A program made the translations under genes and the position numbers. A stretch of DNA of 64,000 nucleotides from a virus. The notes beneath the pieces are model-generated. The model did no database searches and was not told the origin of the DNA. It saw only the letters and a list, made by a program, of their open reading frames with translations. Below, piece after piece: positions 1 to 24,954 of the stretch. Position 1 is the stretch's first letter. Each line of letters starts with the position of its first letter. Location of the stretch: IMG/VR virus record IMGVR_UViG_3300027969_000046. One strand, 5' to 3'.

Positions 1-528
1 CGACATATTGCCGTGTTTAGTGCCTTTACAGAAGGTATGCAGTTGTTCAGCTCATTCATTATGTTACTTAATTTCCCTCGCATGGGTAAAATGAAAGGCA
101 TGGGTCAGATTGTTACATGGTCTATTGTTGATGAAACCATGCACGCTGAATCAATGATGAAGTTGTTTAAGACCTACATCCACGAGAATACAGAAATTTG
201 GAATGATGAATTGAAATCGTCCATCTATGCAATTGCAGAAAAGATGGTTGAACTTGAAGATAAGTTTATTGACCTTGCCTTTGGTGTAACAGAGATGGAA
301 GGCCTGAGTGCTGAAGAAGTTAAAAAGTATATCCGATATATAGCTGACCGCAGACTGATTGGCCTTGGCATGAAAGGCATTTTTAAAGTAAAACGCAACC
401 CTCTGCCATGGGTTGAAGAAATGATTAACGCACCTACTCACACAAACTTCTTTGAGAACCGTGCTACTGATTACGCTAAAGGCGCATTGAGTGGTTCTTG
501 GGACGATGTATGGGGCAGAGCCGCCTAA
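1..528 (+). CDS. nrdB: Ribonucleotide reductase class Ia beta subunit, C-terminal part (5' end outside window)
   Basis: FTEGMQLFSSF, DETMH di-iron ligands, YIADRRL and NFFE motifs. Confidence 0.95.
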   Translation, partial: RHIAVFSAFTEGMQLFSSFIMLLNFPRMGKMKGMGQIVTWSIVDETMHAESMMKLFKTYIHENTEIWNDELKSSIYAIAEKMVELEDKFIDLAFGVTEMEGLSAEEVKKYIRYIADRRLIGLGMKGIFKVKRNPLPWVEEMINAPTHTNFFENRATDYAKGALSGSWDDVWGRAA

Positions 529-1232
529 TGTTAATTCTCTACACATTGGTAATGACACACATTACCATTCTTTGTGTTACAATGTATTTACATCGTAGCC
601 AAGCACACCGAGCAGTAACATTTAATCCTGTAATAGAAAACATCATGCGATTTTGGCTATGGCTTACAACAGGCATGGTCACAAAGCAATGGGTTGCTAT
701 ACACCGCAAGCACCATCAAATGACCGACCAACATGGTGACCCACATTCACCAAAAGTATTTGGTATTTGGCGTGTATTATTTGGTGGTGCAGTTCTATAT
801 CATAAAGCATCAAAAGATAAATTGATGGTTGAAACATATGGCAAAGGAACGCCTGACGATTGGGTTGAGAAGAATATATACAGTAAACATTCTCGTCTAG
901 GTATTACTTTGTTATTACTAATAAATTTACTTTGTTTTTCTTGGTGGGGTTTACTCACATGGGGAATTCAAATGATTTGGATCCCATTGTGGGCCGCAGG
1001 TGTGGTCAATGGTATTGGCCATTATTGGGGTTATCGTAACACAGAAACGAATGATACATCCAAAAACATTGTACCAATAGGTTTGATTATTGGTGGTGAA
1101 GAACTACATAACAACCATCACAATAAACCAGCAAGTGCAAAACTATCTGAAAAATGGTTTGAATTGGACATTGGATGGTTTTGGATTAAAACACTAAGTT
1201 ATTTGAAGTTAGCAAAAATCAACAGAGAATAA
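528..1232 (+). CDS. Membrane acyl-lipid/acyl-CoA delta-9 fatty acid desaturase (DesA-like)
   Basis: Three His boxes (HRSQAH, HRKHH, HNNHH), GDPHSP, NGIGHYWGYRN and TM segments; ATG overlaps the nrdB stop (TAATG). Confidence 0.92.
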   Translation: MLILYTLVMTHITILCVTMYLHRSQAHRAVTFNPVIENIMRFWLWLTTGMVTKQWVAIHRKHHQMTDQHGDPHSPKVFGIWRVLFGGAVLYHKASKDKLMVETYGKGTPDDWVEKNIYSKHSRLGITLLLLINLLCFSWWGLLTWGIQMIWIPLWAAGVVNGIGHYWGYRNTETNDTSKNIVPIGLIIGGEELHNNHHNKPASAKLSEKWFELDIGWFWIKTLSYLKLAKINRE

Positions 1233-2201: not shown

Positions 2202-2695
2202 TGTGGTTTTATTATAATACAGCAGAACAATTCAAAGAAGAAGATATACAAGACCATTTTGGTTTTGTATATCTCATCACACACCTAGGAACAGGCCGTA
2301 AATACATTGGCAAGAAGTTCTTTACCAAATCCAAAACAAGACAAATTAAAGGCAAGAAGAAGAAATCTCGTGTTTCTTCCGATTGGATAACCTATTGGGG
2401 TTCTAACATCGAATTACAAGAAGAAGTTAAGTTAAACGGGGAGGACAAATACACAAGAGAAATCCTACATTTATGTAAGTCTAGGTCAGCGTGTAGTTAT
2501 TGGGAAACATTTGAGATATTCAGTCGCCATGCTTTATTATCGGATGCATACTACAACTCATGGGTGACCTGTAAAATTCACAAAGCTCATGTATTAGGAA
2601 AATTTAATGGCTCGCAACAAAGCACTAGCAAACAACGACACGATTCAAGTTCGGTCAACAGCGAAAACAACCAATCATCTGAAATTACGGATTGA
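2201..2695 (+). CDS. GIY-YIG endonuclease (T4 endonuclease II/DenA-like)
   Basis: GFVYLIT...RKYIGKK, YWGS, REILHLC, YYN motifs. Confidence 0.8.
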   Translation: MWFYYNTAEQFKEEDIQDHFGFVYLITHLGTGRKYIGKKFFTKSKTRQIKGKKKKSRVSSDWITYWGSNIELQEEVKLNGEDKYTREILHLCKSRSACSYWETFEIFSRHALLSDAYYNSWVTCKIHKAHVLGKFNGSQQSTSKQRHDSSSVNSENNQSSEITD

Positions 2696-3359
2696 TGACC
2701 TTAAAACATTTCAACCATTAACAGAAAACCAACGATTATTTTTTGAAGCATACAAACGAGGCGATTACTTTGTAGCACTACACGGTGTTGCAGGCACAGG
2801 TAAAACCTTTTGTGCCTTATACAAAGCACTTGAAGAAGTAATGGATAAATCTAATCCATTCACACAGATTATTATAGTCCGTTCAGCGGTACAAAGCCGT
2901 GAGATTGGTCACCTACCTGGTGATGTAAACGAAAAAATGGAAATCTACCAACAACCATACAGGCAGATATGCGAAACGCTATTTGACCGTAAAGATGCTT
3001 GGGATAGATTAGAAGAACAACACCACATTCAATTTATTAGCACATCATTCATTCGTGGTATGTCTTTTGATAACGCCATCATCATTGTAGATGAAATGCA
3101 GAATCTAACCTATGAAGAAATTGATACTGTTATGACCCGTGTTGGCCATATGTCCAAGATTATTTGGTGTGGTGATTACAGGCAAACCGACCTGAATAAG
3201 AAAAAGAATGATATGTCAGGTATTCTTAAATTCTTTGATATTGCCATGCACATGAAGGCATTTACCAAAATTGAATTCACGGTAGATGATATTGTCCGCT
3301 CATCATTGGTGAAGGACTATATTCTTGCCAAAATTCAATACGAGGATGCAAACGGGTAA
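2607..3359 (+). CDS. phoH: PhoH-like ATPase
   Basis: GVAGTGKT Walker A, IGHLPG, FIRGMSF, IIVDEMQN, GDYRQTD, DIVRS. Confidence 0.95.
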   Translation: MARNKALANNDTIQVRSTAKTTNHLKLRIDDLKTFQPLTENQRLFFEAYKRGDYFVALHGVAGTGKTFCALYKALEEVMDKSNPFTQIIIVRSAVQSREIGHLPGDVNEKMEIYQQPYRQICETLFDRKDAWDRLEEQHHIQFISTSFIRGMSFDNAIIIVDEMQNLTYEEIDTVMTRVGHMSKIIWCGDYRQTDLNKKKNDMSGILKFFDIAMHMKAFTKIEFTVDDIVRSSLVKDYILAKIQYEDANG

Positions 3360-3408
3360 TTTCACCATCCAAAATAGTGTGGGCATACTAGTAGAAACAC
3401 TTAGTTTT

Positions 3409-3432
3409 TATTGCGTTGCAACATATATAATA
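3409..3432 (+). promoter_or_regulatory. PhaR-box-like palindrome (TTGC-GTT-GCAACA) overlapping a TATATAATA promoter element
   Basis: TATTGCGTTGCAACATATATAATA about 55 nt upstream of the phasin-like ORF. Confidence 0.5.
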
Positions 3433-3485
3433 GTAGAGGCGCCGATTAGTAGGTGCCTATACTATTTAATATAAGGAATATTACC

Positions 3486-3689
3486 ATGTTTGCATTAGAT
3501 TCTATGATTGACACAATTCAATCCGCTAAAAAACAATTCGTTACCACTTTTGTTACAGATAAAGAAGTTCAAAAGCCACTCATTGGTTTTGTTGATGCAC
3601 AAACAGATTTTGTTAAGCAAATCGTAAAAACAAACGAAGTATTGGCAACACAAACTAAAGATGCTTTTACAAAGGCATTGAAGGTATAA
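3486..3689 (+). CDS. Small amphipathic helical protein, phasin-like
   Basis: AAGGAA RBS; MFALDSMIDTIQSAKKQFV...FVDAQTDFVKQIV..., predicted all-helical with amphipathic pattern. Confidence 0.5.
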   Translation: MFALDSMIDTIQSAKKQFVTTFVTDKEVQKPLIGFVDAQTDFVKQIVKTNEVLATQTKDAFTKALKV

Positions 3690-3691
3690 TC

Positions 3692-3877
3692 ATGTCAAAA
3701 GAGTTGGATGCGTTAAGCGGAGTAGAAACTCCAAATCTAACGAACTTTTGGAATTGGGTAAAAACCACATTTACCCCATCATACAAAAGCGAAATTGAAG
3801 CCTATCTTGCTGAATCTACCTCTCATGCAGATGTAGAAAGAAGAATCAAAGTGCTTCAAATGCGAGGTATGATATGA
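3692..3877 (+). CDS. DUF3563-like small protein
   Basis: EAYLAESTSHADVERRIKVL matches my recollection of the Burkholderiales DUF3563 core (EAYLAxSxDxxxLERRxRxL). Confidence 0.65.
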   Translation: MSKELDALSGVETPNLTNFWNWVKTTFTPSYKSEIEAYLAESTSHADVERRIKVLQMRGMI

Positions 3878-3966
3878 GAGTAATATCTTCAATTTGGAAT
3901 TTTCTCATAGCTTGTGCAGAAGAATTAGAAAAATACCGTAACGGAAAGTATAGTAAAGTTAAATAA
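3874..3966 (+). CDS. 30-aa amphipathic peptide, coupled to the DUF3563-like ORF
   Basis: ATGA overlap; MRVISSIWNFLIACAEELEKYRNGKYSKVK. Confidence 0.5.
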   Translation: MRVISSIWNFLIACAEELEKYRNGKYSKVK

Positions 3967-3995
3967 GCGAGTTTTGAGGTTTCATACATACCAGT

Positions 3996-4259
3996 ATGGA
4001 AAAGAAAACTTATAAACTCACTTCACCGAAAGGTGCCCTTATGTTGGACATAAGGAATAACTATAAATCGTTTCACTTGATTATCCGCAATGGTTGGGCA
4101 ATTAAGTTCTCAGTTTATGGTGGTGAGAATATTCTATTGATATTTACATCAACCTTTACCGGTCAGACTGTTATTAGGTATTTTGGTAATGAAGATGAGG
4201 CTGTAGATTGTATTAACTTTGTTACCGCACATGACCCACAAGAAGAAATAGAAGCATAA
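3996..4259 (+). CDS. Hypothetical protein
   Basis: ORF with GAGG RBS, followed by a terminator. Confidence 0.6.
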   Translation: MEKKTYKLTSPKGALMLDIRNNYKSFHLIIRNGWAIKFSVYGGENILLIFTSTFTGQTVIRYFGNEDEAVDCINFVTAHDPQEEIEA

Positions 4260-4260
4260 G

Positions 4261-4285
4261 AACCCGCTGAAAGGCGGGTTTTTTA
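4261..4285 (+). terminator. Rho-independent terminator
   Basis: AACCCGC-TGAAAG-GCGGGTT hairpin followed by a T run. Confidence 0.85.
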
Positions 4286-4317
4286 TTGCCTCACAATAGC
4301 TATTATTATGATACAAT
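4286..4317 (+). promoter_or_regulatory. Class-2 promoter TTGCC-N21-TACAAT
   Basis: Same spacing recurs at 12447, 17206 and 33051. Confidence 0.55.
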
Positions 4318-24901: not shown

Positions 24902-24954
24902 TGTTGCTTAAAAACAACAGCAGCCCTTGACATCCACTCCAGTTCTGTTATACT
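24902..24954 (+). promoter_or_regulatory. Early promoter with operator
   Basis: TGTTG-CTTAAAAA-CAACA; TTGACA(24927)-16-TATACT. Confidence 0.8.

What the first reader, a model, noticed from the sequence alone, without database searches (positions are those of the whole stretch)
3409..3966. Candidate phage PHA-granule module: PhaR-box-like operator, phasin-like ORF, DUF3563-like ORF and amphipathic peptide
Seen: the palindrome TTGC-GTT-GCAA(CA) overlaps a TATATAATA promoter element directly upstream of three tiny amphipathic-helix ORFs (67, 61 and 30 aa). Known: the polyhydroxyalkanoate regulator PhaR binds TGC-N3-GCA-type sites upstream of phasin genes and is titrated off DNA by PHA granules; DUF3563 is a Burkholderiales family (my recollection). 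Inference: the phage uses host PhaR as a sensor of stored carbon and expresses granule-coating proteins only when PHA is present, possibly to mobilise it for virion production. I know of no characterised phage system like this. The phasin call rests on helical and amphipathic character, not on a database hit.
Basis: partly seen in the sequence, partly recalled or inferred. Interest (0 to 1): 0.85.

Follow-up and report, generated by a model that had tools for sequence, protein, structure and literature searches.

The report
Phage micro-protein operon behind PhaR operator
An uncultured T4-like lake phage puts the DNA site that the bacterial carbon-storage (PHB) sensor PhaR binds on the promoter of a four-gene operon of tiny proteins, so the phage probably switches these genes according to its host's carbon reserve; the supposed "phasin" is not a demonstrable phasin relative.

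Summary
The sequence features are real. The palindrome TATTGC-GTT-GCAACA (3409-3423) abuts a TATATAAT -10 element. Downstream lie a conserved leader hairpin, four coupled small genes (67, 61, 30 and 87 aa) and a terminator near 4288.

The palindrome fits published PhaR/PhbF operators. The same extended palindrome, in the same -35/-10 layout, lies upstream of Polynucleobacter phasin genes and phaR. It also precedes 26 of 32 bacterial DUF3563 genes in Burkholderiales. It is 26-fold enriched in front of ORF1 homologues in 63 non-redundant phage loci. It is the only such box in the 64-kb window.

ORF2 is a DUF3563 homologue. ORF1 is a confidently modelled helical hairpin from a large family found almost only in phages. 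Its weak phasin hits reflect helix periodicity, not homology, because reversed sequences score the same. ORF3 belongs to a micropeptide family that travels with ORF1.

Best reading: host PhaR represses this operon until PHB granules titrate it. What the products do is unknown. Nothing was tested at the bench.

The scan has reported the same theme before on related phage DNA. Verdict: first reading partly supported; a new variant of host-regulator co-option by phages.

The parts
3382..3404 (+). Conserved upstream element GGCATACTAGTAGAAACACTTAG between the phoH stop and the operator; function unknown
   Evidence: Nearly identical in L003-L008 and L028 upstream of the ORF1 homologue; sequence
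3408..3424 (.). PhaR/PhbF-type operator TTATTGCGTTGCAACAT; core TGC-GTT-GCA at 3412-3420
   Evidence: It is the only TGC-RNY-GCA box in the 64-kb window. It fits published PhaR motifs. The same palindrome lies upstream of Polynucleobacter phasin and phaR genes, of bacterial DUF3563 genes and of ORF1 homologues in 25 of 63 phage loci.
3424..3431 (+). -10 promoter element TATATAAT (TATAAT at 3426-3431); no good -35 at 16-18 nt
   Evidence: Sequence. TATATAAT is conserved at this position in nearly all related loci. The transcription start is not mapped.
3430..3465 (+). 5' leader stem-loop, probably an mRNA-stabilising hairpin
   Evidence: Folding energy -19.2 kcal/mol, z -3.05. A hairpin is present at the same place in divergent loci, with compensatory changes in 3 of 4 consensus pairs. 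No Rfam family matches.
3473..3478 (+). Shine-Dalgarno AAGGAA, 7 nt before the ORF1 ATG
   Evidence: Sequence; AGGAG-type sites in homologous loci
3486..3689 (+). ORF1, 67 aa: helical hairpin of a large, almost phage-only family; not a demonstrable phasin
   Evidence: Family size. AlphaFold2 pLDDT 94.8 with helices 2-22 and 26-66. Only 2 hits in 185,579 species genomes, both on MAG contigs. Phasin tests negative.
3692..3877 (+). ORF2, 61 aa: DUF3563 (PF12086) homologue, translationally coupled to ORF1
   Evidence: Pfam E 3.2e-5, 24.2 bits against a 26.9 cut-off. Orthologues pass the cut-off at 27.7-29.8 bits. BLASTP to a bacterial DUF3563 gives E 5e-6.
3874..3966 (+). ORF3, 30 aa micropeptide (W-N-F-L...E..E-Y family); its ATG overlaps the ORF2 stop
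   Evidence: Relatives lie next to or near ORF1 homologues in 27 loci, including distant phage groups
3996..4259 (+). ORF4, 87 aa small alpha+beta protein of unknown function; last gene of the unit
   Evidence: Conserved after the ORF1-3 genes in L001-L038. Model pLDDT 77.7. Best structural match is only Z 6.0. It has phage-only look-alikes.
4261..4288 (+). Intrinsic-terminator-like hairpin AACCCGC-TGAAAG-GCGGGTT followed by TTTTTATT
   Evidence: Sequence; the hairpin is listed

Best explanation
Positions 3408-4288 form one transcription unit of an uncultured T4-like freshwater phage, and its promoter carries an operator of the host PHB-sensing repressor PhaR (PhbF/AniA).

Inferred mechanism: in a host without PHB, free PhaR binds the palindrome, which fills the spacer directly upstream of the -10 element and blocks RNA polymerase. 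In a host loaded with PHB granules, PhaR is titrated onto the granules and the unit is transcribed. A 5' hairpin then stabilises the mRNA, and four small proteins are made by coupled translation.

The products are ORF1 (a phage-specific helical hairpin), ORF2 (a DUF3563 homologue whose bacterial relatives mostly sit behind the same operator type), ORF3 (a 30-aa micropeptide that co-travels with ORF1) and ORF4 (a small alpha+beta protein).

Shown here: the sequence match to published operators; the identical palindrome and layout at host phasin and phaR genes; enrichment at phage and DUF3563 promoters; and the gene families. Inferred: PhaR binding, the direction of regulation, and any link of the products to PHB. 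The biochemical role of the products is not known. The conserved polar residues of ORF1 suggest a specific partner rather than a generic granule coat.
For: (1) Published operators. H. seropedicae PhbF: TG[N]TGC[N]3GCAA, confirmed by footprint (PMC3206438). R. eutropha PhaR: YTKNTGCRNYGCANMAR (PMC12849132). S. meliloti: YGCRNYGCR (PMC12542648). The window site TTATTGCGTTGCAACAT has 1, 2 and 0 core mismatches to these.

(2) Host side. 22 of 30 Polynucleobacter Phasin_2 loci carry TGC-N3-GCA within 250 nt upstream. Many are ATGTTGCAxxGCAACAT, overlapping a -35 that lies 15-17 nt before TATAAT. In five genomes the 15-mer with at most 1 mismatch occurs 8-20 times, against 3-6 for the control pattern. 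These sites lie upstream of phasin genes; in G005, 3 of the 4 exact sites do. They also lie upstream of phaR itself, at -31 and at -116/-128.

(3) Phage side. Site density is 2.72 per kb in the -160..-15 region of ORF1 homologues against 0.104 per kb elsewhere. 25 of 63 non-redundant loci carry a site, in at least four promoter and leader architectures whose ORF1 proteins are 40-55% identical.

(4) The window's 8-bp-shorter spacing means the box cannot act as a -35 here (9-nt spacer). Even so, the palindrome is intact or perfect in the window, L006, L008 and L028. This argues for selection on the operator itself.

(5) It is the only TGC-RNY-GCA box in 64 kb.

(6) 26 of 32 bacterial DUF3563 loci have a box within 300 nt upstream: 3.44 per kb against 0.28 per kb elsewhere.

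(7) ORF2 is DUF3563.
Against: There is no binding or expression evidence, and the transcription start is not mapped.

The host is unknown. The only hints are an ORF1-bearing contig binned in a Polynucleobacter MAG and the fact that DUF3563 was found in Burkholderiales. No DUF3563 was found in 26 Polynucleobacter genomes.

38 of 63 related phage loci lack the box, including close relatives L002-L005, L007 and L012, so the operator is dispensable.

Within the window alone, a single such palindrome is what chance gives.

In R. eutropha, PhaR can also activate, so the sign of regulation is not certain.

None of the products has a demonstrated link to PHB.
Confidence: 0.58

Rival explanations
1. 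One reading: ORF1 is a phage phasin that coats PHA granules, with ORF2 and ORF3 as helpers, to mobilise stored carbon for virion production, under PhaR control.
For: The PhaR-type operator is shown as above. 16 of 150 ORF1-family members give sub-threshold Pfam Phasin_2 hits, best E 1.2e-4, and no other family recurs as often. Automatic Atlas names for two viral clusters read 'Phasin family protein'. ORF1 is all-helical.
Against: The window protein has no Phasin_2 hit. hhalign against 21 genuine Polynucleobacter phasins gives a probability of 0.6-1.9%. Against a phasin HMM, real sequences score like reversed ones (3.65 vs 3.41 bits, p 0.35), and both score well above shuffled ones (0.4 bits). 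The signal is therefore helix periodicity and composition, not ordered homology. The Pfam hits map to inconsistent profile regions. The hydrophobic moment is unremarkable. There are nearly invariant polar residues (D9, Q12, K15, K16, Q39, T40, K44). The family is absent from cellular genomes.
Confidence: 0.15
2. The palindrome is a relic or passenger. It would have been copied with a strong host-type promoter or with the DUF3563 gene and would have no regulatory role in the phage, so the unit is expressed constitutively from TATATAAT.
For: Many close relatives lack the box or carry decayed versions, for example a 4-nt spacing in L001 and degenerate forms in L012 and L016. The first half of the palindrome doubles as the -35 hexamer TTGCNN in most distant loci. 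Box presence does not correlate with DUF3563 presence.
Against: The second half-site and the RNY centre are kept across promoter types whose ORF1 proteins are only 40-55% identical. In the window subgroup the box no longer sits at -35, yet it is an intact or perfect palindrome. Enrichment over the rest of the phage DNA is 26-fold.
Confidence: 0.2
3. The palindrome is bound by another regulator, either phage-encoded or a different host factor that shares the TGC-N3-GCA preference, and its match to PhaR sites is coincidental.
For: Binding was not tested. A different palindrome (CTTTT-N-AAAAG) occupies the same spacer position in another group of ORF1 promoters, so the position may host varied operators.
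Against: The same extended palindrome lies upstream of phaR, of several phasin paralogues per Polynucleobacter genome, and of DUF3563 genes in many Burkholderiales. This is the signature of the PhaR regulon described. No PhaR-like gene is present in the window.
Confidence: 0.07

Closest known systems
PhaR/PhbF/AniA-phaP repression circuit of PHB-storing proteobacteria (H. seropedicae PhbF, PMC3206438; R. eutropha PhaR, PMC12849132; S. meliloti AniA, PMC12542648)
   Same: The operator sequence class is the same: TGC-RNY-GCA with TGTTGC/GCAACA arms. Its position overlaps the core promoter, and the downstream genes encode small proteins. The same operator lies upstream of host phasin and phaR genes.
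   Different: The operator is on a lytic T4-like phage genome, and the regulator is not encoded nearby. The first gene is not a recognisable phasin. Binding is untested.
Host nutrient-regulator boxes on cyanophage genes (PhoB pho-boxes before pstS/phoA, NtcA sites); from my own knowledge, not checked here
   Same: A lytic T4-like phage ties auxiliary genes to a host nutrient-status transcription factor.
   Different: The signal here would be stored carbon (PHB granules titrating a repressor). The products are micro-proteins of unknown function, not recognisable metabolic enzymes or transporters.
Pfam PF12086 DUF3563 (about 60-aa proteins, found here in 37 of 401 Burkholderiales genomes)
   Same: ORF2 shares the length and the conserved block NF-x-N-x-L ... 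EAYLA-x-S-x-D-x-x-D(L/V)E-x-R-(M/I)-(R/K). Its orthologues pass the Pfam cut-off.
   Different: ORF2 is phage-encoded and embedded in a coupled four-gene unit. The window copy scores 24.2 bits, just under the 26.9 cut-off. The function of the family is unknown, and no paper in the library mentions it.
Phasin_2 (PF09361) granule-associated proteins
   Same: Small, helical, expressed from a PhaR-type promoter; similar helix periodicity and composition.
   Different: About a third of the length. No significant sequence or profile similarity, and similarity does not depend on residue order. The family is found almost only in phages.

Membership tests
PhaR/PhbF operator | TGC-N3-GCA core with purine-N-pyrimidine centre | tested here: met
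   TGC-GTT-GCA at 3412-3420
PhaR/PhbF operator | Extended consensus TG[N]TGC[N]3GCAA / YTKNTGCRNYGCANMAR | tested here: met
   One and two mismatches respectively; the R. eutropha authors accept up to 3 mismatches
PhaR/PhbF operator | Occurs at phasin and phaR promoters of the candidate host clade | tested here: met
   Polynucleobacter: 22 of 30 phasin loci, and phaR in 4 of 5 genomes at the regex used
PhaR/PhbF operator | Overlaps the core promoter or transcription start | tested here: inconclusive
   The box ends 2 nt before TATAAT by sequence reading.
PhaR/PhbF operator | Bound by PhaR and released by PHB | not testable with these tools
   Needs EMSA or footprinting and reporter assays
Phasin_2 (PF09361), for ORF1 | Pfam score over the gathering cut-off | tested here: not met
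   No hit at E up to 1 for the window protein. 16 of 150 relatives hit only below the cut-off.
Phasin_2 (PF09361), for ORF1 | Profile-profile similarity to genuine phasins | tested here: not met
   hhalign probability 0.6-1.9% against 21 Polynucleobacter phasins
Phasin_2 (PF09361), for ORF1 | Similarity depends on residue order (homology rather than composition) | tested here: not met
   Real and reversed sequences score alike (p 0.35); both far exceed shuffled ones
Phasin_2 (PF09361), for ORF1 | Binds PHA granules | not testable with these tools
   Needs localisation or in vitro binding experiments
DUF3563 (PF12086), for ORF2 | Pfam score over the gathering cut-off (26.9 bits) | tested here: inconclusive
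   The window copy scores 24.2 bits, E 3.2e-5. Orthologues at 70-77% identity score 27.7-29.8 bits.
DUF3563 (PF12086), for ORF2 | About 60 aa with the conserved AYLA...D-x-x-D(L/V)E-x-R block | tested here: met
   Alignment to a bacterial member: 34% identity over 44 residues, E 5e-6; sequences

The most novel reading that the evidence does not exclude
Lytic lake phages read the host's PHB store through the host repressor PhaR and then deploy a conserved set of micro-proteins (the ORF1 hairpin, DUF3563 and the ORF3 peptide). These would act on the PHB granule surface, on PhaR, or on the PhaR regulon. Correspondingly, bacterial DUF3563 would be a previously unrecognised member of the PhaR regulon in Burkholderiales.
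Probability: 0.45. Interest if true: 0.75.

Novelty: new variant of a known kind. Interest (0 to 1): 0.62.

Why it matters
If PhaR really controls this unit, it would be a case of a lytic phage sensing its host's stored-carbon state through a host repressor that is titrated by a physical granule. This would extend the cyanophage PhoB/NtcA paradigm to carbon storage in abundant freshwater bacteria.

It would also give the first functional handle on two orphan families. One is DUF3563, which sits behind PhaR-type boxes in 26 of 32 bacterial loci. The other is a phage micro-protein family with hundreds of clusters.

All of this is directly testable with EMSA and reporter assays in Cupriavidus or Herbaspirillum.

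Tried and rejected
- Cultured phages: tblastn of ORF1 and ORF2 against 50,697 records found no match. DNA search hit only phoH.
- ORF1 fold searches (PDB Foldseek and ESM Atlas) returned only generic helical hairpins and unnamed viral clusters. The profile against PDB sequences matched only designed helical bundles.
- hhalign of the ORF1 family against Polynucleobacter phasins and against PhaR found nothing.
- The 'longer' homologue search was uninformative because it covered only proteins of 283-2000 aa.
- A2 was too diverse for a genome-contig scan, so A1 was used instead.
- Complex prediction for ORF1 plus ORF3 gave no verdict (score 0.01). This is evidence neither for nor against binding.
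- ORF4 fold searches gave a best Z of 6.0 to unrelated small alpha+beta proteins, plus uncharacterised phage proteins.
- Rfam: no family matches the leader.
- Hydrophobic-moment test: not above shuffles.
- DUF3563 was not found in 26 Polynucleobacter genomes.
- Neighbours of bacterial DUF3563 genes are unrelated to PHA: LysR, GGDEF/EAL, GNAT and hydrolases.
- The L117 50-aa second gene (P0291) looked DUF3563-like by eye but gives no Pfam hit, so it is left unassigned.
- A T4 late promoter (TATAAATA) and a sigma-54 promoter were considered for the promoter and rejected on sequence.
- A terminator role for the palindrome was rejected: the stem is only 4-6 bp and AT-rich, with no T-run.

Full report
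**Anatomy.** The window is part of an uncultured T4-like freshwater phage with 36.6% G+C. The region holds an nrdB fragment, a fatty-acid desaturase, a secreted non-specific endonuclease, a GIY-YIG gene and phoH at 2607-3359. Related contigs carry gp32, gp59, ribonucleotide reductase, MazG and Tad3.

Downstream of phoH, the sequence reads in this order:
- a conserved 23-nt element (3382-3404);
- the palindrome TATTGC-GTT-GCAACA (3409-3423);
- TATATAAT (3424-3431);
- a leader hairpin at 3430-3465 (-19.2 kcal/mol, z -3.05);
- AAGGAA (3473-3478);
- ORF1 (3486-3689, 67 aa);
- ORF2 (3692-3877, 61 aa), starting 2 nt after the ORF1 stop;
- ORF3 (3874-3966, 30 aa), whose ATG overlaps the ORF2 stop;
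- ORF4 (3996-4259, 87 aa);
- a G+C-rich hairpin followed by a T-run (4261-4288).

**The genes are real.**
- ORF1 has 69 close relatives, 243 hits in viral contigs and 467 clusters at 50% identity.
- Only two of 185,579 species genomes hold an ORF1 relative. Both are MAG contigs, labelled Haliscomenobacter and Polynucleobacter, and are probably mis-binned phage DNA.
- The gene order phoH-ORF1-(ORF2)-(ORF3)-ORF4 is kept in L001-L028 and L036.
- An ORF3-like micropeptide family (W-N-F-L...E..E-Y, often ending G-W-Y-Y) lies beside or near ORF1 homologues in 27 loci, including distant phage groups.

**ORF2 is DUF3563.**
- The window copy scores 24.2 bits (E 3.2e-5), against a cut-off of 26.9.
- Its orthologues score 27.7-29.8 bits.
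- It aligns with a bacterial member at 34% identity over 44 residues, through the block EAYLA-x-S-x-x-x-D(L/V)E-x-R.
- DUF3563 was found in 37 of 401 Burkholderiales genomes, in 0 of 26 Polynucleobacter genomes and in 0 of 14 control genomes.

**ORF1 is not a demonstrable phasin.**
- AlphaFold2 gives a confident helical hairpin, pLDDT 94.8. Fold searches on it are uninformative.
- The window protein has no Phasin_2 hit. 16 of 150 relatives have sub-threshold hits, best E 1.2e-4, but these map to inconsistent profile regions.
- hhalign against 21 genuine Polynucleobacter phasins gives a probability below 2%, and against PhaR 0.6%.
- The decisive control: against a phasin HMM, real sequences score like their reversed copies (3.65 vs 3.41 bits, p 0.35). 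Both score far above shuffled copies, at 0.4 bits. The resemblance is therefore helix periodicity and composition, not ordered homology.
- The hydrophobic moment is ordinary.
- Nearly invariant polar residues point to a specific partner rather than a generic granule coat.

**The operator.**
- Published PhaR-type motifs are TG[N]TGC[N]3GCAA (footprinted), YTKNTGCRNYGCANMAR and YGCRNYGCR. The window site fits them with 1, 2 and 0 core mismatches.
- A Polynucleobacter genome handle was reached through L082, and phasin genes were fetched from 26 genomes of that genus.
- 22 of 30 phasin loci carry TGC-N3-GCA within 250 nt upstream. Many are ATGTTGCAxxGCAACAT, in which TTGCAx serves as the -35, 15-17 nt before TATAAT. 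This is the very layout seen upstream of phage ORF1 homologues in L017, L020, L042, L075, L076 and L080.
- In five Polynucleobacter genomes the 15-mer with at most 1 mismatch occurs 8-20 times, against 3-6 for a control pattern. The sites lie before phasin genes and before phaR itself, which follows phaB.
- In the phage loci the site density is 2.72 per kb just upstream of ORF1 homologues against 0.104 per kb elsewhere, and 25 of 63 non-redundant loci carry one.
- In the window it is the only TGC-RNY-GCA box in 64 kb.
- Compared with L017 and L020, the window subgroup has 8 bp fewer between the box and the -10. TTGCGT therefore cannot be the -35 here. Yet the palindrome is intact or perfect in the window, L006, L008 and L028, which argues for selection on the operator itself.

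**Bacterial DUF3563 genes sit behind the same box.**
- In a first set, 13 of 16 loci had a box. One of the three without a box, L129, comes from the unpublished genome G054.
- In the enlarged set, restricted to published genomes (L129/G054 and L159/G321 left out), 26 of 32 loci have a TGC-RNY-GCA box within 300 nt upstream. The density is 3.44 per kb against 0.28 per kb elsewhere.
- No claim in this report rests on the unpublished genomes.
- The neighbouring genes are unrelated to PHA metabolism, so the box is the only link to PhaR.

**Weaknesses.**
- There are no binding, transcription-start or expression data.
- The host is unknown. LD12 and other PHB-storing bacteria are also possible.
- 38 of 63 related loci lack the box.
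- PhaR can also act as an activator.
- None of the four products has a shown function (ORF4).

**Literature and earlier scan notes.**
- No paper in the library mentions DUF3563, and none found describes phage phasins or PhaR boxes on phages.
- The scan itself has reported the same theme on related phage DNA. Those AI notes agree with this report but are not independent evidence.
- I reached the host-promoter and DUF3563 results before reading them. The PhbF paper came from one of them.

**Verdict.** This is a well-supported, bench-untested case of a host PhaR-type operator on a phage micro-protein operon that includes a DUF3563 homologue. The phasin label for ORF1 should be dropped.

Noticed in passing
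L045-L049, L054, L059, L066-L074 (about 30-50 nt upstream of the ORF1 homologue): In another group of ORF1 promoters, a different palindrome of the type CTTTT-N(2-7)-AAAAG takes the place of the PhaR-type box in the spacer between TTGC and TATATAAT. An example is CTTTTCTAAGAAAAG in L071. It may be an operator for another regulator, or just an AT-rich spacer.
   Followed up: no
window 24902-24950; also L009 +549, L051 +276 and L058 +254 relative to ORF1: A recurring element TGTTGC-N-TAAAAACA lies just upstream of a near-consensus sigma-70 promoter (TTGACA, 17 nt, TATACT in the window). It shares the TGTTGC arm but lacks the GCA half-site.
   Followed up: no
window 3382-3404: A 23-nt element GGCATACTAGTAGAAACACTTAG, containing ACTAGT, is conserved after the phoH stop in several related phages, whether or not the PhaR-type box is present.
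   Followed up: no
window 3430-3465 and the same position in L002-L080: The leader stem-loop between the -10 and the ribosome-binding site is kept in very divergent loci, with compensatory stem changes. Many loops have the form GCYG...CGG. No Rfam family matches.
   Followed up: partly
L013, L014 and L015, about +369 and +462 from ORF1: The ORF3-like micropeptide gene is duplicated in tandem in some phages. In other groups it lies upstream of ORF1 rather than downstream.
   Followed up: partly
L118, L154, L155: The three highest-scoring, most canonical bacterial DUF3563 genes (79-94 bits) lack the PhaR-type box, while most of the more divergent members have it. This suggests that only part of the family is under PhaR control.
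   Followed up: no
L081, L082: ORF1-bearing contigs of 45-46% G+C are binned in Haliscomenobacter and Polynucleobacter MAGs from one study. They are nearly identical to each other around ORF1, so at least one is probably mis-binned phage DNA. L082 carries the ATGCTGC-CCT-GCAGCAT variant of the box.
   Followed up: partly
window 498-1232: A fatty-acid desaturase gene overlaps the end of nrdB. Earlier scan notes on related phages report PhaR-like boxes before desaturase operons, but none is present here.
   Followed up: partly
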